In this document: positions 9,709 to 26,440 of the stretch, in pieces
Position numbering within the stretch: position 1 is the stretch's first letter
How the letters are laid out: the number at the start of each line of letters is the position of its first letter
Assembly (NCBI GenBank): GCA_964404705.1
Contig: CAYOLE010000001.1
Span: 1-62,234 of the forward strand
From: an uncultured Rhodohalobacter sp.
Lineage (GTDB): Bacteria; Bacteroidota; Rhodothermia; Balneolales; Balneolaceae
Length of the DNA: 62,234 nucleotides
Direction of reading: 5' to 3'
Translations under genes and position numbers: made by a program
The notes under the pieces: model-generated
The model's database searches: none
What the model was told of the DNA's origin: nothing
Seen by the model: the letters and a program-made list of their open reading frames with translations, nothing else

Positions 9709-10785
9709 TTGTCAGCCAAGGTTTCACATAGCGACAGCACTACTTCAAGTTTAATATCCCTCAAATATCTTGCGATCTCCATAGCTTTAAGTGTTATAAG
9801 TATGGGAATCGTAATCTATCTGACCTACACACCCGGTGTGCTCGATCATCTGGCTCCTAAACGCCTGCCTGGATTACTTATCGCGTTAGGGGTAATACTT
9901 TTGAAGGTCTATTTTTCGGCTGCAAAGTTACGTTATCTGGCAGATAAGGAGATTGGCTGGATTGCAAGCACACGAATATCACTTACATGGGATTTTGCAT
10001 CAGCCGTTACCCCGTCTACGATTGGCGGTGCCCCGGTTGCTACGTATGCCATGACAAGAGAGGGTATTAAACTGGGAAAATCATCAGCAATTATTTTATA
10101 TGGCGTTCTGCTGGATCAGTTTTGGTACGCACTCGCTGTTCCAATTCTTCTGCTTGCCGGATTTTACTATCAGGTACTACCACCTGAAATCGGTTTTGTG
10201 GGAAATCTCACCATGGTGCTGATTTATTCAAGCTTATTATTATACGGCGGATTTCTCACCTATGGGTTAGTTGTTAATCCATCATCAATGAAAAAAGTTA
10301 TCAACTGGATTTTTAAATGGCCTTATCTCAATCGATTTTCAGAAAAGATGAGGTTAGAAGCTGATAATCTTGAAGGATATTCTTATGAACTGAGACGCAA
10401 GCCAGTAGGTTTTTTTCTAAAAGCTTTTTTCTTTTCCACCATGAGCTGGCTTTGCCGTATAGCCATTCCTGTTATTGTGATCCTGAGTTTGTTGCCTGGT
10501 CCTGAGATATTACTTGTGCTTAGAAGTCTTGCTATGAACCTGGCTTTCTTAATTATTCCCACTCCTGGGGGTTCGGGGGGCGTTGAAGGATTGTTTGCGA
10601 TTTTTATGGGGCCACTCATTGAGCGCACTGCATTTATCGGTCTTGCAGTTTTCGTCTGGCGATTTATCACCTACTATATAAGCATTGGGTTTGGTATAAT
10701 CGCTACAGCCTGGTATGTAAATCATAAAGTGGTGGAAGTGGTAAAATCATCAAATGATGAAAAACCCATAAAGACAGAAATATAG
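9709..10785 (+). CDS. Lysylphosphatidylglycerol synthase TM (UPF0104, flippase-like) membrane protein
   Basis: Multi-TM protein with SAVTPSTIGG, PTPGGSGGVEG and VWRFITYY motifs; TTG start uncertain. Confidence 0.85.
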   Translation: MSAKVSHSDSTTSSLISLKYLAISIALSVISMGIVIYLTYTPGVLDHLAPKRLPGLLIALGVILLKVYFSAAKLRYLADKEIGWIASTRISLTWDFASAVTPSTIGGAPVATYAMTREGIKLGKSSAIILYGVLLDQFWYALAVPILLLAGFYYQVLPPEIGFVGNLTMVLIYSSLLLYGGFLTYGLVVNPSSMKKVINWIFKWPYLNRFSEKMRLEADNLEGYSYELRRKPVGFFLKAFFFSTMSWLCRIAIPVIVILSLLPGPEILLVLRSLAMNLAFLIIPTPGGSGGVEGLFAIFMGPLIERTAFIGLAVFVWRFITYYISIGFGIIATAWYVNHKVVEVVKSSNDEKPIKTEI

Positions 10786-13971: not shown

Positions 13972-15064
13972 AAGTTAGTGTTCCTTCAGATATCGGATGG
14001 CCTGTTTTCTGCAGTTTATCAATTATCATTTTGTTAGCCTTTGGAAATGGATATTCATTTATCTCATTAATAGTTACCCATTCCAGGGCATTGCTCGATT
14101 TTGGTTTTGGAGTTCCGTGTTCAATTGTACACCAATATGCATGAAGCGTAATTTTAAAGTGAGAGTATGCGTGCTTTACCACCATGAATTTTTTATTCAC
14201 TTTAACTTCAACATCCAGCTCTTCTTCAAGTTCACGGCAAACCGTGTCTTTAATAGACTCGCCTGACTTCTGCTTGCCGCCTGGAAATTCCCACAAACCC
14301 CCGAGCATCACATCGTCAGGCCGCAGGGCAATTAATAATCTCCCGTTTCGATCTGTAATAATGCCCACGCCAATTTGATGGTGTGGGATCTTTTTCTTGG
14401 GTGATTTATAGGGAATTATATCAGTTTCTACCGAATTAAACGCAAAGCAATTCACCGAAAGCGGACAGTTGGTACAATCTGGATTTTTAGGAGTGCAAAC
14501 CATGGCACCCAGTTCCATAACTGCCTGGTTAAAATCGCCAGGATAATCTTGAGGAATAATTGCATCTGCCAGTTGCTGTATTTCATTTTTAACAGCGGAG
14601 CGCCTGATATCATCTTTTACTCCAAAATAGCGGCTTAAAACCCTGATGACATTTCCATCAACAACAGCCTGTTTCTCTTTATAAGCAATGCTGCTGATGG
14701 CGGCAGCGGTATAGGGCCCGATTCCTTTCAGTTTGATCAATTCTTTGTAAGTATCCGGAAAAACACCTTCAAATTTGTTTATAACCTCCTTCGCGGCTTT
14801 ATGCATATTCCGCGCACGGCTATAATAACCAAGGCCTTCCCAGATTTTTAAAACCTGTTGGGGATCGGCCTCCGCGAGATCTTCAACAGCAGGGAAAGTG
14901 CCAAGAAATCGTTTATAGTAAGGAATTACAGTATCAACTCGTGTTTGCTGAAGCATAATTTCTGATATCCAGATTCGGTATGGATCAGATGTATTGCGCC
15001 ACGGCATGTCGCGTTTATTTCGATAATACCATTTAAGAAGAGGGTGAACCGGAAATTCAGTCAC
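13964..15064 (-). CDS. mutY: A/G-specific adenine glycosylase with a C-terminal NUDIX domain
   Basis: SEIMLQQT, GLGYYSRARN, HhH LKGIGPYTA, VDGNV, C-X6-C-X2-C-X5-C [4Fe-4S] motif and HAYSHF. Confidence 0.97.
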   Translation of the reverse strand: MTEFPVHPLLKWYYRNKRDMPWRNTSDPYRIWISEIMLQQTRVDTVIPYYKRFLGTFPAVEDLAEADPQQVLKIWEGLGYYSRARNMHKAAKEVINKFEGVFPDTYKELIKLKGIGPYTAAAISSIAYKEKQAVVDGNVIRVLSRYFGVKDDIRRSAVKNEIQQLADAIIPQDYPGDFNQAVMELGAMVCTPKNPDCTNCPLSVNCFAFNSVETDIIPYKSPKKKIPHHQIGVGIITDRNGRLLIALRPDDVMLGGLWEFPGGKQKSGESIKDTVCRELEEELDVEVKVNKKFMVVKHAYSHFKITLHAYWCTIEHGTPKPKSSNALEWVTINEINEYPFPKANKMIIDKLQKTGHPISEGTLTYD

Positions 15065-16635
15065 TGCGAATCAATCACATTTTGTATTTGTGGATCTTCT
15101 GACTCCTCTACCTCTGCTACCCGGAGTTCGAATTCCTGTGAGGCGGCAGCACCAAACTGGTCTGTGGCAATTACACGAAATGTATGTGCCCCGACCTGCC
15201 GGATGGTGGGAGTCCATCTGAATACACCTGTTTGTTCATTTAGTGAAGCGCCAGAGGGCAGATCAGCACCAAGATATCTGATCAGGTCGGGATGCGTGCC
15301 ATCCGGATCAAAAGCAGATATTTGCTGTTCAAAGGCTTCATCAGCCGGAATGGTTTGCGGCCGGGTGGGAGTGAATCGCGGAGGAGAATTAAAAGGTCTT
15401 ACATCTACTGTAAATTGCATTTGTGTACTTTGCCCGGCAGGTGTAGTTGCAGTAACCTCAATTTGCTGCCGGCCGGTATCGGAGGCTCCAGGTTGCCAGA
15501 AAAGTGAATTTCCACGAACTTTTATATTATTGATCGAGCTTTCCACACTAAATGTAATATTAGAATCATCTCCGGCGTATCCTTCAATTTCAAGCGGAAG
15601 AATCAGCGGTTTTGGAAATGGAAGGGTAACTGTCTCGATCTGTTTAATGGCAAAACGATCGGCCTCATCACCTGCACCGGTACTTCTGCCTGGATCTGAA
15701 GTTCTGATAACCGGAAACAATGAGTTTGACTCGGAGACCAATAACCGGTCTTTATTAATCGTAAAATGGTTACCCGCGCGTTCGTTTTCTTTCCATTTGA
15801 TGATTTCTCCGTCAGGATTTCCAATCCATAATACATTATTTTCAGTTCGAACAACGATTTCATTCCCCCAATAACCAAGTTTTTTCACCGGAGATTCTAC
15901 ATTTATTTGATGGCGGGTATTGCCATTAGAATCGATCAGAAAAATATCACCCTCGTTGTTTGATCCAATAAGTTCACTTTCTGTAAAAAAAATTTTATTG
16001 AGAGAGTTGCTTAACTCCACTTCACCGTCATGTATTAGCTCATCATTACTGGAATTATAGCGATAAATATCTATGAAAGATTGATCACTTAAAACGTAAA
16101 GTACACGGTTTTCATCCGTTGCAAGATCGTTTACAGTTCTATTTTCAAGACGATCAGGATCTACAGGAAGAGGATCAGTATCCACACTTTGTGGCGTTTC
16201 AAGACTAACGGATACAAGTTGGCCATTTTGCATTGCCACGTACAGATCATTTCCAATTCTGCGCACAGAAACCGGTGCTTCGGGCAATACAGTTGAGGAA
16301 TAAACACCAAGAACCGAGGTAGGTTCAATTACAGTTAAACGGCGCCCGTTACCGTGTAGATAAGCAAATCGTATGTCAGCATGCAGCTGGTTTCCTCTTC
16401 TTTGCATTCCTTTTGAGGAATACAGCCATTGTAAAGAATCTTCATAGGTTCTGAAAACTACGAGTCCTTCGCTTTCTGATAAAACGTAAAGATGAGAATG
16501 TGAACTTTCAACATCGAGAATATCCGGAATCTCAAATTCATTGCTGATGTCGTGATTTAATTGTGAAAACGCATCTTCGCAGTGCAATGCAAATAGAGAT
16601 AACAGTAGGATTGAAACTGCCAATATATATTTCAT
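15061..16635 (-). CDS. Secreted protein with an N-terminal beta-propeller-like region and two C-terminal Ig-like (He_PIG/cadherin-like) domains
   Basis: Signal peptide MKYILAVSILLL; LPSGASLNEQTGVFRWTPT...ATDQFG and NSPPRF Ig/cadherin-type motifs; start set at ATG 16635. Confidence 0.75.
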   Translation of the reverse strand: MKYILAVSILLLSLFALHCEDAFSQLNHDISNEFEIPDILDVESSHSHLYVLSESEGLVVFRTYEDSLQWLYSSKGMQRRGNQLHADIRFAYLHGNGRRLTVIEPTSVLGVYSSTVLPEAPVSVRRIGNDLYVAMQNGQLVSVSLETPQSVDTDPLPVDPDRLENRTVNDLATDENRVLYVLSDQSFIDIYRYNSSNDELIHDGEVELSNSLNKIFFTESELIGSNNEGDIFLIDSNGNTRHQINVESPVKKLGYWGNEIVVRTENNVLWIGNPDGEIIKWKENERAGNHFTINKDRLLVSESNSLFPVIRTSDPGRSTGAGDEADRFAIKQIETVTLPFPKPLILPLEIEGYAGDDSNITFSVESSINNIKVRGNSLFWQPGASDTGRQQIEVTATTPAGQSTQMQFTVDVRPFNSPPRFTPTRPQTIPADEAFEQQISAFDPDGTHPDLIRYLGADLPSGASLNEQTGVFRWTPTIRQVGAHTFRVIATDQFGAAASQEFELRVAEVEESEDPQIQNVIDSQ

Positions 16636-16640
16636 AGAAA

Positions 16641-17612
16641 TCAGAGCCAATTATGTTGTTTATACCAGTGGAGTGTACGAGAGATTCCTTCTTCCAGAGA
16701 AACTTCCGATCGATAGCCGAGTTCTTTTTCGGCTTTTTCCGAACTGCATGTCCATTCAAAAATCATTTCGCGAGCCTTTTCACGATTAACAACGGGATAT
16801 GAACCAAATAATGATGCAGTTGTTTCTATAAATCCCGCCACTTTTTTTACAATAGCTGGATTTAGTTTAAAAGCAAAGCTTTTTTTCCCCAGAACTGTTT
16901 CTGCGATCTGTATAATTTCTTTCCAGCAGGTAACCTGACCCGAAATAAAATAGGTGGATACCCCTTCTTTAGTAGATTGTGATGCATTTTCGATTCCACG
17001 CACCAGATCGGATACATATATTACAGATAGTTTTGGGCGGGTACCATTTCCCACAATGGGGGCAACTCTATAACTCATAATTTTAAAGAGAGTATAAATC
17101 TGTGCTTCCCTTGGCCCATAAACTGCTGGCGGACGTAAAATTTTGACAGACATGTTACCTGTGGTGTTTTCATGAATCATCTGTTCCATCAGTTTTTTCG
17201 ATTCGCCATACATACTGACTGGATTCATTGGGTCCTCTTCGGTTCTTGGTCTACCGTTACTGGGTCCGGCTGCTGCCAGGGATGATAAAATTACAATATT
17301 AGAAACGCCAGACTGAAGTGCGATCCGTAATAAATTTTCGGTTGCATCAACATTTGCAAGTGTAAATTGTTGTTTTGTAGGAGCGGAAACAATTCCAGCG
17401 AGATGAAATATCACATTAACATCAGAAAGGGCCTTTTTTATGGTAACGATGGAACTTAGGTCGCCTCTTACTTTAGTGTATGATTTATTCTTAAGCCACT
17501 TTTCGGAAGAGCGAACCAGGCATTTGACTTCTGAATAATCTTTTGATTGAATCAGGTGCTCGGTTAAATGGCTGCCAATAAAACCTGTACCACCGGTAAC
17601 AAATGCTTTCAT
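16641..17612 (-). CDS. Extended SDR (NAD-dependent epimerase family), putative ceramide reductase CerR
   Basis: TGGTGFIG, SSLAA, YGESK (YxxxK) and RPPAVYGP motifs; divergent from the GT4-GT4-spt-GNAT run. SDR call is secure, CerR role is inferred. Confidence 0.75.
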   Translation of the reverse strand: MKAFVTGGTGFIGSHLTEHLIQSKDYSEVKCLVRSSEKWLKNKSYTKVRGDLSSIVTIKKALSDVNVIFHLAGIVSAPTKQQFTLANVDATENLLRIALQSGVSNIVILSSLAAAGPSNGRPRTEEDPMNPVSMYGESKKLMEQMIHENTTGNMSVKILRPPAVYGPREAQIYTLFKIMSYRVAPIVGNGTRPKLSVIYVSDLVRGIENASQSTKEGVSTYFISGQVTCWKEIIQIAETVLGKKSFAFKLNPAIVKKVAGFIETTASLFGSYPVVNREKAREMIFEWTCSSEKAEKELGYRSEVSLEEGISRTLHWYKQHNWL

Positions 17613-17695
17613 TTAATTGTATATTATGTGGCTATAAAAGATCTGAATTATCAGATTTATTAAGATACGAAGTTGAACGCTGCATAGAAAACTGC

Positions 17696-18850
17696 ATGAG
17701 AAATTTGAAGGTTGCCCTTTTTACAGGCAATTACAACCATATAAGAGACGGTGTTTCTCTAACCTTAAATCGATGGGTGGATTATCTTCTAAAAGCCGAA
17801 GCAGAAGTGTTGATTTTTGGTCCTACTGTAGAAAATCCGGATCTGGATCATGTAGGTACACTTATAAAAATTCCATCCATAAAAATGCCAGGCCGGCCAG
17901 AATATCGTATTACTGTTGGGTTACCATCCATGGAAAAAAACCGGTTGGAGTCCTTTAGTCCAGATATTATACACATTGCAACCCCTGATGTTTTAGGTTT
18001 TCAGGCATTAAGATGGGGACGAGACAACAATATACCGTTGGTTTCATCCTATCACACTCACTTTACCAGTTATCTTAAATATTATCATCTGCATTATGTA
18101 GAACAACTCGGCTGGAAATATTTAAGGTGGTTTTATAGCCACTGCAGCCAAATTTATGTTCCAACGCAATCTATGATTAACGAACTTAAGGCCCATTGTA
18201 TAGGATCGAAAAATGACAGCCTGCGTATTTGGGCTCGGGGTGTAGATACCGAGCTTTTCAATCCACAAAAAAGAAGCCAGGAATGGAGAAAGGAAAAAGG
18301 TTTTGCCGATGATGAGATAGTAATCACTTTTGTTTCGAGACTTGTGTGGGAAAAAAACTTAAAATTATATGCTGATGTAGTCCGGGAACTCGAATCCAGG
18401 GAAAAACGTGTTCGTTCTCTTGTAGTGGGTGACGGACCTGCAAAAGAAGAGATGATGGAGATGTTACCCAATACGGTTTTTACCGGTTTTTTAAGAGGTG
18501 ACCAACTGGCCATTGCCTATGCAAGCAGTGATATTTTCTTTTTTCCCTCTGACACAGAAACATTTGGGAATGTAACACTCGAAGCGATGGCCAGCGGACT
18601 GCCATGTCTTGTGGCAGACGCTTCGGGAAGCAAATCTCTGGTGGAGCATGGCGTAAATGGTTTCTTAGTGGATGTTGAAAATGAAACAGCATTTTACGAA
18701 TATGCGAAACAGCTCGTGAAAAATGATCAGCTCAGAGAGGAAATGTCACAACAGTCTTATATTAAATCCGGAGATTTTACGTGGGATAAGATTAACAGCG
18801 GGCTATTGAAAAACTATTACGAATTAGTGGAACTACAGGATTTTTCGTGA
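17696..18850 (+). CDS. GT4 glycosyltransferase, putative glycolipid or ceramide glycosyltransferase
   Basis: ALFTGNYNHIRDGV, HIATP, SYHTHF, RGVDTELF and ETFGNVTLEAMASG (EX7E); start at ATG 17696 avoids overlap with the divergent gene. Confidence 0.9.
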   Translation: MRNLKVALFTGNYNHIRDGVSLTLNRWVDYLLKAEAEVLIFGPTVENPDLDHVGTLIKIPSIKMPGRPEYRITVGLPSMEKNRLESFSPDIIHIATPDVLGFQALRWGRDNNIPLVSSYHTHFTSYLKYYHLHYVEQLGWKYLRWFYSHCSQIYVPTQSMINELKAHCIGSKNDSLRIWARGVDTELFNPQKRSQEWRKEKGFADDEIVITFVSRLVWEKNLKLYADVVRELESREKRVRSLVVGDGPAKEEMMEMLPNTVFTGFLRGDQLAIAYASSDIFFFPSDTETFGNVTLEAMASGLPCLVADASGSKSLVEHGVNGFLVDVENETAFYEYAKQLVKNDQLREEMSQQSYIKSGDFTWDKINSGLLKNYYELVELQDFS

Positions 18851-19965
18851 AAATTTTATATATCTCACACTCACATCCACCCGATGAGCAGCCGCTGGAA
18901 AGTATTGGCGGCATGCAGAATGTGAGTATGCAAATGATGCAAACATTGCGAGTAAGGCCAGAAGTAGAATTAAAAACTATACTTCAAAAAACTTCCTGGA
19001 AAGGGATTGGTTTTAAAACATTCTTTTTTTTAGTGACTTTACTGTGGAAAATTCCCCAGGAAACAAAAAAATTTAAGCCAGATATAATCCTGTTTTCGTC
19101 TATGGTAACTGCCGGAGTTTTACCGTTTTTAATCAGAAAACCTAATGCCGCATGCGTTACTATAAATCATGGGCAGGACGTAACACTGCCTTTTAAAATT
19201 TATCAGCACTATTTGCCTATAGTATTTAAGAATTTGCAGGGAGTAATCTCTGTATCATCTGCTACAAGACAGGCTTGTATTGAAAGAGGAATGGATCCGG
19301 AAATAGGTGTTGCGCTGCCCAATGGATTTGTATTCAATTCTTCCGACACTCTTTTGGACAAACAAGCCGCACGCAGATTAATGGAAGAGAGGTTTTCGAT
19401 AGATTTGTCAGATAGTTTTTTGTTGCTAACTGTGGGTCGACAGGTTAAGCGTAAGGGCCATCAATGGTTTTTGGAACACGTTCTGGATAAAATAAAAAGT
19501 AGTGTGGTGATGTTGATGATTGGAGAGGGTCCGGAAAGTAATGCCATCATTGATGCGAGAGAGAAGAGTGTTAAACGCGATAGAATAATAATTGCGGGTC
19601 GGCAGCCGGATCAAATCCTGGAGGCTGCATACGCAGCAGCAGATCTGTTTATTATGCCGAACATTCCGGTGGAAGGAGATATGGAAGGATTTGGGATAGT
19701 ACTGCTTGAAGCGAATAGTGCAGAAGTTCCTGCTGTAGCTGCAAACCTGGAAGGAATAAAAGATGTAATTGAACAAGGAGTAAACGGATACAGAGTGCCT
19801 TCGAAAAATGCCGGTAAGTTTGCGGCTAAAATAGATCAGGTTCTTAGCAATGAGCTCCAAACGTTGTCTAAAAGCTCAAGAAAATTTGTTGCAGAAAAAT
19901 TTAGTTGGGATTTTGTTATCTCCCAATATTTAGATTTTTTAGAAAAAGTAAAATCGCGCAGTTAA
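18847..19965 (+). CDS. GT4 glycosyltransferase (PimB-like)
   Basis: GGMQN, GRQVKRKG and EGFGIVLLEA (EX7E); 4-bp overlap with the upstream GT4. Confidence 0.9.
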   Translation: MKILYISHSHPPDEQPLESIGGMQNVSMQMMQTLRVRPEVELKTILQKTSWKGIGFKTFFFLVTLLWKIPQETKKFKPDIILFSSMVTAGVLPFLIRKPNAACVTINHGQDVTLPFKIYQHYLPIVFKNLQGVISVSSATRQACIERGMDPEIGVALPNGFVFNSSDTLLDKQAARRLMEERFSIDLSDSFLLLTVGRQVKRKGHQWFLEHVLDKIKSSVVMLMIGEGPESNAIIDAREKSVKRDRIIIAGRQPDQILEAAYAAADLFIMPNIPVEGDMEGFGIVLLEANSAEVPAVAANLEGIKDVIEQGVNGYRVPSKNAGKFAAKIDQVLSNELQTLSKSSRKFVAEKFSWDFVISQYLDFLEKVKSRS

Positions 19966-20046
19966 TGTTCCGATTTTGTTAATTTGATGAAACAGTAATA
20001 CTGTCTATATTTGTTGATTCCCAAAGATTAAAATTAAAGTCATGTA

Positions 20047-21294
20047 ATGGGCCAATCGGAAGCCGATACACAGCAGCATCTATCGATATTTAATAAAGCC
20101 TACGACTTCACCAAAGCTGATGAAGTAAAAAAAATGGGTCTTTACCCATATTTTAAACCTCTGCAAGCTACGGATGGTACAACCGTTCAAATTGAAGGCC
20201 GCGAAGTAATTATGGCCGGGTCGAATAATTATCTTGGTCTTACCAATGATCCAAGAACTGTAGAAGCAGCCCAAAAAGTCTTATCAGTTTATGGAACCGG
20301 TTGTACAGGATCCCGCTATCTGAACGGCACACTGGATTTGCATCTTGAGCTTGAAGACAAGCTCGCAACATTTATGGATAAGGAATCCTGTGTATTATTC
20401 AGTACAGGTTATCAGACAAACGAAGGGTCAATTCAGACTATAGCAGGTAGAAACGATATAATTTTTTCCGACCGGGATAATCATGCCTGTATTGTAGTTG
20501 GCACGCAAGCTTCCAATGCAAAAACTGTTCGTTTTCATCACAGTGATATGGAAAATTTGCGCATGCATCTCGAAAAATCAGATCCGGAAGCCGGCAAGAT
20601 TATCGTAACAGACGGTGTTTTCTCTATGTCTGGAGTTATTGCAAACATTCCGGAACTTGTTTCTCTTGCGAAAGAGTATAATGCCGGATTATATGTGGAT
20701 GATGCCCATGCAATAGGTGTGATTGGAGACGGTGGACGCGGATCGGCGTCTGTGTTCGATTTAACCAGTGAGGTTGACCTGATTAGCGGGACGTTCTCCA
20801 AATCTTTTGCTTCACTGGGAGGATTTATCGTTGGAAATAGAGAAATCATTGAATATATACGCCATCATTCGCCTGCGCATATTTTCAGTGCGAGTATGCC
20901 GCCTGCAAATGTAGCGACAGTACTCAAATCTCTCGAAATTTTGCAAGAGGAACCATGGAGATTGGAAAGGCTTGAGGTAATATCAAATTACATGAGGAAG
21001 GAACTCCGCAATCTTGGGTTTAATGTATGGTCGAGCCAGACGCCCATAATACCTGTTGTGATTGGCGATATCTTCGATTGCTTTAAGTTTTGGAAAGAGC
21101 TTTTTGAGGAAGGTGTTTACTCTAATGCTGTAGTGCCCCCTGCTGTGCCGAAAAATCAGTCATTGTTAAGAACCAGCTATATGGCAACTCATACAGACGA
21201 ACAGCTGGATAAAATATTAAGCGCATTTCAAAAGGTGGGAATCCGCCGCGGCATCATAGATAAAAATGGACGTTCATTGATCAAACAGACTTAA
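20047..21294 (+). CDS. spt: PLP-dependent alpha-oxoamine synthase, most likely serine palmitoyltransferase
   Basis: LYPYF N-terminus, GSNNYLGL, GTGCTGSRYLNGT, DDAHA and GTFSKS (PLP lysine); adjacent to a bCerS-like GNAT. Confidence 0.85.
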   Translation: MGQSEADTQQHLSIFNKAYDFTKADEVKKMGLYPYFKPLQATDGTTVQIEGREVIMAGSNNYLGLTNDPRTVEAAQKVLSVYGTGCTGSRYLNGTLDLHLELEDKLATFMDKESCVLFSTGYQTNEGSIQTIAGRNDIIFSDRDNHACIVVGTQASNAKTVRFHHSDMENLRMHLEKSDPEAGKIIVTDGVFSMSGVIANIPELVSLAKEYNAGLYVDDAHAIGVIGDGGRGSASVFDLTSEVDLISGTFSKSFASLGGFIVGNREIIEYIRHHSPAHIFSASMPPANVATVLKSLEILQEEPWRLERLEVISNYMRKELRNLGFNVWSSQTPIIPVVIGDIFDCFKFWKELFEEGVYSNAVVPPAVPKNQSLLRTSYMATHTDEQLDKILSAFQKVGIRRGIIDKNGRSLIKQT

Positions 21295-21296
21295 AG

Positions 21297-22436
21297 GTGA
21301 ATAAAAAAGCAAGTACAGATGCTATTTCTGTTGTTGATTCGAAAGAGGATAAGTTAAAGTTTTTAGAATTTCCCTATCGGCATTATTCAGAAGATCAGTA
21401 TTGGGTACCACCTCTTAAGGTTGAGCAAAAAAAACTAATCGACACTAAAAAAAATCCGTTTTTCAATAATGCCGATATAGAATTTTTCCTTGCCTATCGC
21501 AATGATAAACTTGTTGGTAGAATAGCTGCCATTATAGATCACCGATATAATGAATATCATAACTCCAAGACAGGTTTTTTTGGGTTTTTTGAATGCATAA
21601 ACCGGGAACAAACAGCTGCTTTAATGTTCAAGGTGGTTGAGGATTGGCTCAGTTCCCGGGGAATTGAGCAGATACTTGGTCCGACAAATCCCGGAATGAT
21701 GGATGAGATCGGAATTCTTGTAAAAGGATTTGCCAAGTATCCATCAATTTTGATGCCTTATCATAAAGAATATTACGATCCACTTCTAAAATCAGTTGGT
21801 CTTAAAAAGGCGATGGACCTATACACGTATGAGGTAAATCAGGATAATGTGGATCGTGAGCGGATGAACAGAGCTGTTGAAATTGTATCAAAACGTTTGC
21901 CTGGCATAAAAATTCGGAAAATAAGACTCAACAGAATTAAAGAAGAGATTTTAATTATCCAAGAGATTTTTAATGCAGCATGGAAAAACAACTGGGGTTT
22001 TATTCCTCTGAGCACTGAAGAGTTTGATTATCTTGCCAAAGACTTAAAAAAAATTGTTGATGCTAATTTTGCACATATTGCAGAAATAGACGACCGGCCG
22101 GTGGCGTTTTCTGTTGCCCTGCCTGATTACAACCAGATTTTCAGAAAAATGGACGGCACGCTATTCCCCACAGGGATTTTTAAAATTCTTTGGAATCGGC
22201 GAAAAATATCCCGGGTTCGTACAGCATTGATGGGAGTAATACCGGAATACCAGGGTAAGGGGATCGATGCATTGCTTCACCGAGAGTCCATAGAAAACGG
22301 ACGCAAATTCAATAAATATGCTTCTGAAATTGGGTGGATACTGGAAAGTAATGTTCAGATGAATCGAGTTGCTGAGAAAATCGGGGGAGAACACGATAAG
22401 ACCTACCGCATGTACACGAAGTCGCTGGTCAGTTAG
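21297..22436 (+). CDS. GNAT-fold acyltransferase, bacterial ceramide synthase (bCerS)-like
   Basis: WVPPL, KNPFF, VGRIAA, GFFGFFEC, NWGFIP, GVIPEYQGKG and WILESN motifs; starts 2 bp after the spt stop. Confidence 0.8.
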   Translation: MNKKASTDAISVVDSKEDKLKFLEFPYRHYSEDQYWVPPLKVEQKKLIDTKKNPFFNNADIEFFLAYRNDKLVGRIAAIIDHRYNEYHNSKTGFFGFFECINREQTAALMFKVVEDWLSSRGIEQILGPTNPGMMDEIGILVKGFAKYPSILMPYHKEYYDPLLKSVGLKKAMDLYTYEVNQDNVDRERMNRAVEIVSKRLPGIKIRKIRLNRIKEEILIIQEIFNAAWKNNWGFIPLSTEEFDYLAKDLKKIVDANFAHIAEIDDRPVAFSVALPDYNQIFRKMDGTLFPTGIFKILWNRRKISRVRTALMGVIPEYQGKGIDALLHRESIENGRKFNKYASEIGWILESNVQMNRVAEKIGGEHDKTYRMYTKSLVS

Positions 22437-24025: not shown

Positions 24026-26440
24026 ATGACGAAAACGAAAGACAAAACGAAAAGTAAATACTCAAAGAAACAGGTTAGTGATATTCTTAATGATTACAAT
24101 ATCGCCTGTTTAAGTCGTCAGATGTCAATTCTTGGAAGAAAAGAAGTACTTACAGGCAAGGCTAAATTTGGGATTTTCGGGGATGGAAAAGAACTCCCGC
24201 AATTAGCAATGGCAAAATATTTTCAAGAGGGGGATTTTCGTGCCGGGTACTACCGCGATCAAACTTTTATGATGGCAATTGATGGCATTACTATTGAACA
24301 GTTTTTCTCGCAGCTTTATGCCAATCCGGATGTAACCAGAGATCCAAATTCTGCCGGGCGACAAATGAATGCACACTTCGCCACTCGTCTTTTAAATGAT
24401 GATGGAACCTGGAAATCTCAAACCAAAATGAAAAATACGGCCGCTGATTTATCGCCTACAGCCGGCCAGATGCCAAAATTGCTGGGCCTTGCACAGGCAT
24501 CAAAAGTATATCGGGATAATGAGCTGCTGCACGACAGAACCAATTTTTCTATTGATGGTAACGAAGTTGCATGGGGCACAATAGGAGATGCAAGTACTTC
24601 GGAAGGTCATTTTTGGGAAACTATGAACGCGGCCGGCGTATTGCAGATTCCATTGGTGGTTTCAGTGTGGGATGATGGTTATGGTATTTCGGTCTCCAAA
24701 AAATATCAAACCATAAAAGAAAGTATTTCAAAAGCTCTCAGAGGGTTTAAGCGCACGAAAAATCAGCCCGGATTTGAAATTATTACCGTGAAAGCCTGGG
24801 ATTATGAAGCACTCCATGATGCATATAAAAAAGCATCCACTATCGCCCGCGAAGAATACTCGCCCGTCCTTGTTCATGTCACGGAGGTTACCCAGCCACA
24901 AGGTCATTCTACTTCGGGATCTCATGAACGTTATAAAAGTGAGGATCGATTGCAGTGGGAAAAGGAACGATGCTGCAATCGTCAATTCCGGTCATGGATT
25001 ATAGCTGAAGAGATCGCCACAGAAGAAGAGCTTAAAGCAATTGAAGAAAAAGCCGTTGATGAGGTGAAGCAGTATCAGAAGAAGGCGTGGAAAGAATTTC
25101 AGCAGCCAATACTGGATCAGAAAGAAAAGCTTAACGAATACCTTGAAAGTCTGATTGATACACATGACGATATAGCACGCCTGGAAGAGCTTAAAAAAGA
25201 ACTGAAAAGAAAATCTCGTCCATACCGAAGAGATATTGTCTCGACAGGAAGAAAGATATTATCTGTCTTACGAGAGGAACAATCAGATGAAATTGAAAAT
25301 TTTAAATCCTGGCTTGCAAATCTTAAAGAAGAAAATAAGGAGTTGTTTAATTCACATCTTTTGAGTGAATCCGCGTTTTCTCCCCTTTTGATAGATGAAA
25401 CGGAGCCTGTCTATTCGGATACTTCCAGAAAGGTGGATGGCCGTGTTGTGTTGCGGAATAATTTTGATGCCCTGTTTGCAAAATATCCCGAAACGCTTGT
25501 ATTTGGAGAAGATGCCGGACAGCTTGGCGATGTAAATCTTGGTCTTGAAGGTATGCAGGAAAAATATGGCAAAACCAGGGTGTCTGATACAGGCATACGA
25601 GAAGCCACAATTTTAGGGCAGGGAATGGGGATGGCGCTTCGAGGACTGCGTCCAATTGCAGAAATTCAATATTTAGATTATTTGCTGTATTGTTTCCAGG
25701 GACTGAGCGATGATTTAGCTACGCTTCGATATCGCACAAAAGGTGGACAGGCTGCACCGGTAATTGTTCGTACAAGAGGGCACAGACTCGAAGGGATCTG
25801 GCATGCCGGCTCACCTATGGGTATGATAGTGAATGGCATACGTGGAATGCATGTGTGTGTTCCCAGCAACCTGACAGATGCGGCCGGATTTTATAACACT
25901 CTCCTACAGGGTGATGATCCCGCCTTGGTGATCGAGCCATTGAATGCCTATCGCCTGAAAGAAAAACTTCCCGAGAATCTTGGTGAGTTTACGGTTCCCC
26001 TTGGAATCCCCAAAATTGTCCGGGAAGGTGAGGATATAACCGTCGTTTCTTATGGCTCTACTTTAAATTTGGTTCATTCTGTTTTACCGGAACTTGAAGA
26101 TATGGGTATATCGGTTGAATTGATAGATGTACGAACGCTATTACCGTTCGACAGAGAGCAAATGATTCTTGAGTCCCTGAAGAAAACAAACCGCATCCTG
26201 TTTGTTGACGAAGATGTACCTGGAGGTGCCACAGCTTATATGAGGCAAAAAGTAATTGGTGAGCAGAAAGGCTTTTACCATCTGGATTCCGAAGCAAAAT
26301 GTCTTACCGCAATGGATCACCGAACAGCTTTTGCAAGTGATGGAGATTACTTTACCAAACCCAATGCAGAAGATATCTTCGAAGCAGTCTATGGTATTAT
26401 GAGCGAAAGTAATCCACAAAAATGGATGCCGATTGGATAG
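24026..26440 (+). CDS. 2-oxoacid (likely branched-chain) dehydrogenase E1, fused alpha and beta subunits
   Basis: GYYRDQ, GDASTSEG TPP motif, GHSTSGSH, FGED, DTGIREATI and AEIQY motifs. Confidence 0.93.
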   Translation: MTKTKDKTKSKYSKKQVSDILNDYNIACLSRQMSILGRKEVLTGKAKFGIFGDGKELPQLAMAKYFQEGDFRAGYYRDQTFMMAIDGITIEQFFSQLYANPDVTRDPNSAGRQMNAHFATRLLNDDGTWKSQTKMKNTAADLSPTAGQMPKLLGLAQASKVYRDNELLHDRTNFSIDGNEVAWGTIGDASTSEGHFWETMNAAGVLQIPLVVSVWDDGYGISVSKKYQTIKESISKALRGFKRTKNQPGFEIITVKAWDYEALHDAYKKASTIAREEYSPVLVHVTEVTQPQGHSTSGSHERYKSEDRLQWEKERCCNRQFRSWIIAEEIATEEELKAIEEKAVDEVKQYQKKAWKEFQQPILDQKEKLNEYLESLIDTHDDIARLEELKKELKRKSRPYRRDIVSTGRKILSVLREEQSDEIENFKSWLANLKEENKELFNSHLLSESAFSPLLIDETEPVYSDTSRKVDGRVVLRNNFDALFAKYPETLVFGEDAGQLGDVNLGLEGMQEKYGKTRVSDTGIREATILGQGMGMALRGLRPIAEIQYLDYLLYCFQGLSDDLATLRYRTKGGQAAPVIVRTRGHRLEGIWHAGSPMGMIVNGIRGMHVCVPSNLTDAAGFYNTLLQGDDPALVIEPLNAYRLKEKLPENLGEFTVPLGIPKIVREGEDITVVSYGSTLNLVHSVLPELEDMGISVELIDVRTLLPFDREQMILESLKKTNRILFVDEDVPGGATAYMRQKVIGEQKGFYHLDSEAKCLTAMDHRTAFASDGDYFTKPNAEDIFEAVYGIMSESNPQKWMPIG

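What the first reader, a model, noticed from the sequence alone, without database searches (positions are those of the whole stretch)
16641..22436. Apparently complete glycosphingolipid biosynthesis locus (CerR-like, GT4, GT4, Spt, bCerS-like)
Seen: a PLP alpha-oxoamine synthase followed 2 bp later by a 379-aa GNAT protein, preceded by two overlapping GT4 genes, with an extended SDR divergent across an 83-bp gap. Known: the Caulobacter ceramide pathway uses Spt, a GNAT ceramide synthase (bCerS) and an SDR-fold ceramide reductase (CerR), with separate glycosyltransferases adding sugars. Inference: all three core enzymes and two head-group enzymes are clustered here, predicting a mono- or di-glycosylceramide. 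I know of no characterised glycosphingolipid pathway in this presumed lineage. No ACP or acyl-CoA ligase is in the cluster. The nearby branched-chain E1 could supply iso-branched primers (speculative).
Basis: partly seen in the sequence, partly recalled or inferred. Interest (0 to 1): 0.82.

Follow-up and report, generated by a model that had tools for sequence, protein, structure and literature searches.

The report
Glycosphingolipid genes in lipid-A-lacking Balneolaceae
Five neighbouring genes in a salt-lake-type bacterium likely build ceramide and cap it with sugars by a pathway known from other bacteria, and because no lipid A genes were found in this bacterium or its class-mates, these lipids may help form the outer membrane instead.

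Summary
The five ORFs and spacings are as described. The host is a Rhodohalobacter-like Balneolaceae. The PLP enzyme is Spt-type: best PDB match S. multivorum SPT (409 bits; cysteate enzymes 210-216), with Ala at the site where SulA has Lys; a true SulA lies on another contig. The GNAT is of the bCerS/YghO type. The SDR is CerR-like by neighbourhood only. GT4a groups (99/96) with Sphingomonadales GT4s that are probably Sgt1-type; the second GT4 slot varies. Spt, GNAT, SDR and GT4a occur in 121 of 121 sampled genomes of the class, so this is a core pathway, clustered in Balneolales. No characterised bCerS, CerR or Sgt sequence could be aligned directly, and no lipid was measured. Verdict: new member of the known bacterial ceramide/glycosphingolipid pathway (about 0.7). 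The larger point: LpxC was found in 0 of 121 class genomes, while LptFG and LptD are kept (5 of 5), so these lipids may replace LPS, as in Sphingomonas (about 0.4). The scan found this cluster before in other Balneolaceae genomes; the lipid A lead came from one such note and was re-tested here.

The parts
16641..17612 (-). Extended SDR, CerR-like 3-keto(ceramide) reductase (inferred)
   Evidence: Pfam Epimerase/3Beta_HSD; TGxxGxxG, Ser and YxxxK motifs; three best plasmid hits by bit score all sit beside spt and GNAT; best genome hit of the Roseomonas and Klebsiella cerR-position genes; 121/121 class genomes
17613..17695 (.). 83-bp AT-rich divergent intergenic gap
   Evidence: sequence; no promoter signal above chance
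17696..18850 (+). GT4a, retaining GT4, Sgt1/Cer-GlcAT-like first ceramide glycosyltransferase (inferred)
   Evidence: Pfam GT4; top 4 of 26 plasmid records are Sphingomonadales, 38-41%; clade with them 99/96; 121/121 class genomes
18847..19965 (+). GT4b, second GT4 of unknown donor; likely adds a further sugar
   Evidence: Pfam GT4; 109/121 class genomes; adjacent to GT4a in 52 of 61 non-Balneolales class genomes; replaced by a different GT4 in some Balneolaceae
20047..21294 (+). Serine palmitoyltransferase-type alpha-oxoamine synthase
   Evidence: PDB best hit S. multivorum SPT 409 bits; NF047600 499.6 bits, under its 640 cut-off; Lys252 PLP site, Ala282 at the SulA-diagnostic site; 121/121 class genomes
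21297..22436 (+). Tandem GNAT, bCerS/YghO-type N-acyltransferase (inferred ceramide synthase)
   Evidence: Model pLDDT 90.9, tandem-GNAT fold; 33-37% to YghO and to the cerS-position gene of Caulobacter-type clusters; 121/121 class genomes

Best explanation
The locus likely makes a glycosylceramide: the Spt-type enzyme is predicted to condense serine with a long acyl chain, the tandem GNAT to N-acylate the base, the SDR to reduce the 3-keto group, GT4a to add a first alpha-linked sugar (probably glucuronate) and GT4b a second. Shown here: gene order, families, Spt-type active-site residue, fold, distribution. Inferred: every activity, the donors, the order of acylation and reduction, and the acyl carrier (probably the housekeeping acyl-ACP or acyl-CoA, since no AcpR/AasR orthologue was found). 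Step-wise odds: Spt plus bCerS backbone about 0.85; SDR as CerR about 0.7; GT4a acting on ceramide about 0.7; GT4b second sugar about 0.5.
For: Spt: 409 bits to SPT against 297 to the next AOS and 210-216 to cysteate enzymes; Ala at the position that PMC9304779 gives as Lys in SulA and Ala in Spt, in all aligned orthologues; separate SulA with Lys on C37. GNAT: best genome hit (34-35%, E about 1e-67) of cerS-position genes in Roseomonas and Klebsiella clusters laid out like the Caulobacter cluster of PMC11324152; next to spt in 17 of 20 non-Balneolales class loci. SDR: spt-GNAT-SDR triads in two Nitrospirae, Rubrobacter, Streptomyces, Aureispira. GT4a: clade with Sphingomonadales GT4s; PMC6445935 says Sgt1/2 homologues outside Caulobacteraceae are closest in Sphingomonadaceae, and PMC13318209 Table S8 gives 38-46% between Sgt1 subgroups against 24-28% to the DAG enzyme. 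In 151 other genomes of the phylum, 51 of 52 with a strong GT4a hit carry Spt (39 of the 52 are one family). NDP-sugar dehydrogenases are present, 5 of 5.
Against: No characterised bCerS, CerR, Sgt1, Cer-GlcAT or AgcT sequence could be obtained, so all links are by position or proxy. Spt is under the NCBIfam cut-off and has class-specific changes near the dimer interface. The SDR tree does not separate cerR-position genes from HpnA and another extended SDR. GT4 homologues of ceramide enzymes also glycosylate diacylglycerol (bioRxiv 2023.05.23.541633); GT4a's best NCBIfam hit is a phosphatidylglycerol GlcNAc transferase, far under cut-off. Passages of PMC5167729 list DPG, PE, PG/PC as major lipids of Balneolaceae and say Rubricoccaceae have no glycolipids. 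Five Spt-negative genomes have weaker GT4a hits (E about 1e-50, 800-aa ORFs). Synteny in Balneolales includes unrelated genes.
Confidence: 0.7

Rival explanations
1. Ceramide is made, but the two GT4s glycosylate diacylglycerol (or another lipid) and sit here by chance of genome order.
For: GT4 lipid synthases switch acceptor readily. In 20 of 20 non-Balneolales class loci no GT4a/b lies within about 9 kb of spt. The whole Balneolales region is syntenic. Related GT4s occur in Pseudomonas, Bacillus and Chlorobi-type genomes.
Against: GT4a groups with Sphingomonadales enzymes to the exclusion of those relatives (99/96); the gene that replaces GT4b in the same slot also has Sphingomonadales GT4s as best hits (8 of 15 records).
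Confidence: 0.15
2. The Spt-like clade of this class uses another amino acid (cysteate or alanine) and yields a sulfonate sphingoid or 1-deoxy lipid; the GT4s then act elsewhere on it or on other lipids.
For: Salinibacteraceae are reported to hold halocapnines of unknown biosynthesis, yet SulA-like hits were found in only 4 of 61 non-Balneolales class genomes, and 5 of 5 complete genomes checked carry one AOS only, the orthologue of this gene. The clade has an invariant His four residues before Ala282.
Against: Ala, not Lys, at the SulA site; all 51 other Balneolaceae sampled keep a separate SulA; the catalytic Asn, His, Lys, Arg and the GSR serine match S. multivorum SPT in the alignment. Which handles are Salinibacter is not known.
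Confidence: 0.1
3. Only Spt and the GNAT belong together; the SDR is a nucleotide-sugar or other reductase of the mutY/Ig-protein operon and the product stays a 3-keto-ceramide or is reduced by another enzyme.
For: The SDR is divergent and overlaps the next minus-strand gene; identity to cerR-position genes is only 25-26%; tree unresolved; a KDSR route exists in Bacteroides.
Against: Its best plasmid hits are spt/GNAT neighbours in three distant taxa, and it is co-oriented with spt and GNAT in two Nitrospirae loci at 37-40%.
Confidence: 0.15

Closest known systems
Caulobacter crescentus ceramide pathway: Spt (CCNA_01220), bCerS (CCNA_01212/CC_1154), CerR (CCNA_01222/CC_1164)
   Same: PLP AOS, tandem-GNAT acyltransferase and extended SDR; genes at those positions in Caulobacter-type clusters pick the window genes as best hits.
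   Different: No dedicated AcpR/AasR (no orthologue found); no phosphoglycerate head-group genes or second LptFG in the cluster; cerS is coupled to spt here, whereas PMC11324152 states it lies in a separate operon in the clusters it describes; glycosyltransferases are inside the cluster.
Caulobacter Sgt1/Sgt2 and Zymomonas/Sphingobium ceramide glucuronosyltransferase (ZMO1957 type)
   Same: Two adjacent GT4 genes; GT4a groups with Sphingomonadales GT4s that are probably Sgt1-type; the alternative slot gene (GT4c) resembles a second Sphingomonadales GT4, probably Sgt2-type.
   Different: GT4b is unlike either (20-30% local identity) and had no plasmid hit at 1e-20. This genome keeps its GT4c on another contig. 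No direct alignment to the characterised enzymes was possible.
Bacteroides fragilis Spt/CerS/CerR/AgcT (alpha-galactosylceramide)
   Same: Same phylum, Bacteroidota-type Spt, GT4 head-group enzyme.
   Different: Genes dispersed in Bacteroidota producers (PMC11334938 passage); AgcT is only about 24% identical to Cer-GlcAT (PMC9692976) and was not compared here; B. thetaiotaomicron has LpxC (control).
SulA/CapB cysteate acyltransferase (Alistipes, 7U7H; 28EH)
   Same: Same AOS fold and chemistry.
   Different: The window enzyme lacks the diagnostic Lys; the genome's SulA is G000:C37:441-1670 (480 bits to 28EH).
Sphingomonas outer membrane with glycosphingolipids in place of LPS
   Same: Lipid A genes not found, Lpt genes kept, related GT4s.
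   Different: Different phylum; no lipid data; Balneolaceae also encode SulA and, per PMC12971839, Balneolales have OlsF homologues, so other lipids could fill the role.

Membership tests
Bacterial serine palmitoyltransferase | Closer to SPT than to BioF, Kbl, HemA, SulA | tested here: met
   409 bits SPT, 297 BioF/Kbl-type, 266 Kbl, 216 cysteate enzyme, 193 BioF
Bacterial serine palmitoyltransferase | PLP Lys and catalytic Asn/His/Arg; Ala (not Lys) at SulA K281 position | tested here: met
   Lys252, Ala282; own SulA has Lys
Bacterial serine palmitoyltransferase | NCBIfam NF047600 curated cut-off (640 bits) | tested here: not met
   499.6 bits; still the best family. The model is a Bacteroidota equivalog; the cut-off is not a defining feature of SPT activity
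Bacterial serine palmitoyltransferase | Serine-dependent 3-ketosphinganine formation | not testable with these tools
   needs assay
bCerS (CCNA_01212 / YghO family) | About 380-aa tandem GNAT homologous to bCerS over full length | tested here: inconclusive
   Fold met; full-length 33-37% to YghO and cerS-position genes; the characterised protein itself was not available
bCerS (CCNA_01212 / YghO family) | Genomic association with spt | tested here: met
   2 bp here; 17 of 20 non-Balneolales class loci; Rubrobacter, Streptomyces, Aureispira
CerR (CCNA_01222) | Extended SDR with NAD(P) motif and YxxxK, orthologous to CerR | tested here: inconclusive
   Motifs met; best genome hit of cerR-position genes at 25-26%; tree unresolved
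CerR (CCNA_01222) | Reduces 3-keto-ceramide; periplasmic in Caulobacter (PMC11087976) | not testable with these tools
   needs assay; the Rossmann motif starts at residue 6, leaving no room for a classical signal peptide
Sgt1 / Cer-GlcAT ceramide glucuronosyltransferase | GT4 clustering with Sphingomonadales/Caulobacter Sgt1 rather than the Agrobacterium DAG enzyme | tested here: inconclusive
   Clade 99/96 with four Sphingomonadales GT4s; their Sgt1 identity is inferred from taxon, length, chromid position and identity ranges, not shown
Sgt1 / Cer-GlcAT ceramide glucuronosyltransferase | UDP-GlcA donor, ceramide acceptor | not testable with these tools
   needs assay
SulA/CapB cysteate acyltransferase | Lys at position 281 (SulA numbering) | tested here: not met
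   Ala282 in the window enzyme
LPS-less glycosphingolipid outer membrane (Sphingomonas type) | Lipid A pathway genes missing, Lpt kept | tested here: met
   LpxC 0/121; LpxB 3/121 weak partial hits; LpxK and LpxA over cut-off 0/3, WaaA 0/4 class genomes, present in 2/2 and 1/1 same-phylum controls; LptFG, LptD 5/5
LPS-less glycosphingolipid outer membrane (Sphingomonas type) | Glycosphingolipid is the main outer-leaflet lipid and essential | not testable with these tools
   needs membrane fractionation and genetics; taxonomic TLC summaries do not name such a lipid

The most novel reading that the evidence does not exclude
The whole class that holds Balneolales and Rhodothermales has lost lipid A and builds its outer leaflet from glycosphingolipids made by this pathway and carried by the retained Lpt machine: a second, independent LPS-to-glycosphingolipid swap, sharing Sgt1-like and Sgt2-like glycosyltransferases with Sphingomonadales, with a variable second-sugar slot (GT4b, GT4c, both or none) setting the glycan.
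Probability: 0.4. Interest if true: 0.8.

Novelty: new member of a known kind. Interest (0 to 1): 0.5.

Why it matters
As a locus it extends a known pathway to a lineage with cultured strains and puts backbone and head-group genes side by side, which makes it an easy heterologous test and offers an uncharacterised second glycosyltransferase (GT4b). If the lipids stand in for LPS, it gives a class-wide, culturable case of a diderm envelope without lipid A outside Alphaproteobacteria, and a test of whether Lpt moves sphingolipids. No paper reporting ceramides or lack of lipid A in Balneolales/Rhodothermales turned up in searches (listings read; open-access library only). The species list of Stankeviciute 2022 and the supplement of PMC11334938 could not be seen and may already predict sphingolipids here.

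Tried and rejected
Sulfonolipid synthase reading: rejected for this gene. BioF/Kbl: rejected on scores. PDB sequence search with the GNAT gave one weak hit; with GT4a only distant GT4s. Single-sequence fold of the GNAT failed (pLDDT 34.5); the alignment fold worked. ESM Atlas with a homologue gave only generic GNAT clusters. Characterised reference sequences were not reached: cluster look-ups and the representative search returned no Caulobacter, Zymomonas or B. fragilis protein among the rows listed. Chlorobaculum MgdA (a DAG galactosyltransferase) as a relative of GT4a could not be checked (paper not held); the Chlorobi-type homologues fall outside the GT4a clade. The second GNAT paralogue does not track SulA one to one (21 vs 58 of 121). 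E1 subtype not resolved: all NCBIfam hits under cut-off. Promoter scan uninformative. The first, larger GT tree finished only in quick mode; the careful tree used 23 of those 59 rows, leaving out GT4b, GT4c, Rhizobium and near-duplicates. Papers not held: Stankeviciute 2022, Okino 2020, Masuda 2011, Baronio 2010, Corcelli 2004.
Full report
Observation. GC content is that of the window (0.39-0.43). Named homologues place the host in Balneolaceae near Rhodohalobacter (GNAT 86% to Rhodohalobacter sp. SW132). The class name Rhodothermia and the order names for unnamed handles are recalled GTDB usage; the tool gives only kinship ranks.

The PLP enzyme. Against the PDB it scores 409 bits to Sphingobacterium multivorum SPT, 297 to a BioF/Kbl-type enzyme, 266 to Kbl, 216 and 210 to cysteate acyltransferases and at most 193 to BioF. 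Its best NCBIfam family is SerpalmtaseCFB at 499.6 bits, under the cut-off of 640. PMC9304779 (passages) gives Lys281, thirty residues after the PLP lysine, as the mark of SulA, with Ala in Spt. The window enzyme has Lys252 and Ala282, as do all aligned class orthologues; the only other AOS found in the genome (C37:441-1670) has Lys there and scores 480 bits to 28EH. So this genome has both an Spt-type and a SulA-type enzyme, and the cluster holds the Spt-type. The clade shows fixed differences from other Spts (loss of an Asp and, in most, an Arg; an invariant His) whose meaning is unknown.

The GNAT. A 53-sequence fold gives pLDDT 90.9 and matches tandem GNATs. Full-length homologues occur in 45 plasmid records, including E. 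coli YghO (37%) and Roseomonas. The Roseomonas locus has ACP-spt, a DAG-kinase-like gene, a CDP-alcohol transferase, LptF/G, the GNAT, two nucleotidyltransferases and acyl-AMP ligase-SDR, matching the Caulobacter cluster as described in PMC11324152 (passages); Klebsiella has ligase-SDR-ACP-spt with a divergent GNAT. The cerS-, cerR- and spt-position genes of both pick the window genes as best hits in the whole genome (GNAT E 4e-67 and 8e-68; SDR E 6e-19 and 3e-22 against next-best 7e-9 and 8e-7). This is positional orthology; the characterised proteins were not available.

The SDR. It has the extended-SDR motifs. Of 32 plasmid records hit at 1e-20, the three best by bit score (Aureispira, Rubrobacter, Streptomyces) lie beside spt and the GNAT, and two Nitrospirae loci have SDR-spt-GNAT in one run at 37-40%. 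A quick tree of 23 SDRs groups it with the Aureispira and Nitrospirae genes (87-88) but does not separate cerR-position genes from HpnA. It is the weakest of the three assignments.

The GT4s. GT4a's four best plasmid records of 26 are Sphingomonadales (38-41%, 277-310 bits; next 237), and a careful tree joins class GT4a with them at 99/96, apart from Chlorobi/Ignavibacteria-type, Pseudomonas and Bacillus homologues (23 rows). PMC6445935 (passages) shows Sgt1 and Sgt2 are adjacent GT4s that glycosylate ceramide, not DAG, with closest outside homologues in Sphingomonadaceae. PMC13318209 (passages and supplement part 7) reports 38-46% identity between Sgt1 subgroups, 24-28% to the Agrobacterium-type DAG enzyme, and a 410-aa Sgt1b on chromosome 2; the Novosphingobium chromid hit here gives a 410-aa ORF. 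That makes the hits probably Sgt1-type, not certainly. The slot after GT4a varies among 44 informative loci: GT4b 32, a different GT4 (GT4c) 9, both 1, empty 2. GT4c's best hits are again Sphingomonadales (8 of 15 records, 35-40%), so it is probably Sgt2-like; this genome keeps a GT4c on C41 (59.5%). Against: GT4 homologues of ceramide enzymes make glycosyl-DAG in other bacteria (bioRxiv 2023.05.23.541633, passages).

Distribution. In 121 class genomes, Spt, SDR, GT4a and GNAT are each found in 121, GT4b in 109, SulA-like in 58, the second GNAT in 21. The five-gene order holds in 20 of 20 more Balneolales loci. Outside Balneolales the set falls into two modules: spt-GNAT adjacent in 17 of 20 loci and GT4a-GT4b adjacent in 52 of 61 genomes (my count). 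In 151 other genomes of the phylum, 104 have Spt and 52 a strong GT4a hit (E<1e-60), 51 of them with Spt; six weaker hits were set aside, five in Spt-negative genomes. Kin are not independent: 39 of the 52 are one family.

Envelope context. An earlier scan note (e1-5273711) said the class lacks lipid A genes. Re-tested: LpxC 0 of 121, ringing in the four expected controls; LpxB three weak partial hits of about 105-130 residues, one just over the Pfam cut-off; LpxK 0 of 3, LpxA over cut-off 0 of 3, WaaA 0 of 4 class genomes, all present in same-phylum controls; LptFG and LptD in 5 of 5. PMC11087976 (part 1 of 4 read) notes that sphingolipids replace LPS in sphingomonads; a 2026 preprint on Lpt paralogues moving sphingolipids in Caulobacter was seen only as a listing. 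Against: passages of PMC5167729 give DPG, PE and PG/PC as major Balneolaceae lipids and no glycolipids in Rubricoccaceae; SulA products and ornithine lipids (OlsF homologues in Balneolales, PMC12971839 passage) are other candidates.

Mechanism. Most likely: serine plus acyl donor to 3-ketosphinganine (Spt); N-acylation (GNAT); reduction (SDR), in the Caulobacter order or the reverse; alpha-glycosylation, probably glucuronate (GT4a; NDP-sugar dehydrogenases present); a second sugar (GT4b or GT4c). No AcpR or AasR orthologue was found by tblastn, so a general acyl carrier is inferred. All activities are inferred.

Open conflict. Halocapnine sulfonolipids are reported in Salinibacter and Salisaeta with no known pathway, yet SulA-like hits were found in only 4 of 61 non-Balneolales class genomes, and five complete ones carry a single AOS, this gene's orthologue (one search lists their other PLP enzymes, not examined). 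Which handles are Salinibacter is unknown. The orthologue's substrate there needs an assay.

Verdict. Real, well conserved, most likely a glycosylceramide pathway: a new member of a known kind, already noted by this scan in at least three other Balneolaceae genomes. Interest 0.5, raised by the tested absence of lipid A genes. Other papers seen as passages only: PMC11334938 (supplement unreadable), PMC13028669, PMC11789144, PMC10865984, PMC9692976, PMC5897459, PMC6508672.

Noticed in passing
G000:C37:441-1670 (L002): SulA/CapB-type cysteate acyltransferase with the diagnostic Lys; found in 51 of 51 other Balneolaceae sampled, so sulfonolipids are predicted family-wide alongside ceramides.
   Followed up: partly
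G000:C114:1631-2773 (L001): Second bCerS-like GNAT (29% to the window one), in 21 of 121 class genomes, all of which have SulA; candidate capnine N-acyltransferase.
   Followed up: partly
G000:C41:5515-6678: GT4c (probably Sgt2-like), 59.5% to the gene that fills the second slot in Gracilimonas; here it is outside the cluster.
   Followed up: partly
G036, G042, G106, G114, G058 (L130-L134): Each complete genome has one alpha-oxoamine synthase, the Spt orthologue, and no SulA, BioF, Kbl or HemA hit at 1e-8; the enzyme for the reported halocapnines of this order is unaccounted for.
   Followed up: partly
G038:C30, G080:C158, G066:C210, G046:C1:441589: SulA-like domains (48-49%) inside 1100-1170-aa open frames; possible fusion enzymes.
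   Followed up: no
class-wide: Lipid A pathway genes not found while LptFG and LptD are kept.
   Followed up: yes
family f23 of the phylum sample (e.g. L110-L113): 38 of 39 genomes carry an Spt and 39 of 39 a GT4a-related gene; small genomes, probably green sulfur bacteria (inferred).
   Followed up: no
window 15061-16650 (-): 529-aa secreted-looking protein with putative Ig domains, overlapping the SDR stop and kept beside it across Balneolales; role unknown.
   Followed up: no
window 24026-26440; L078, L080-L083: Fused E1 alpha-beta 2-oxoacid dehydrogenase downstream; in three other Balneolales families a different 690-716-aa E1 lies just after the GNAT.
   Followed up: partly
L100 (Rubrobacter), L101 (Streptomyces) plasmids: spt-GNAT-SDR operons in monoderm Actinomycetota, next to an LTA-synthase-family gene and a condensation-domain gene respectively.
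   Followed up: no
window 9709-10785: Lysylphosphatidylglycerol-synthase-TM (flippase-like) gene 6 kb upstream; link to the cluster not tested.
   Followed up: no
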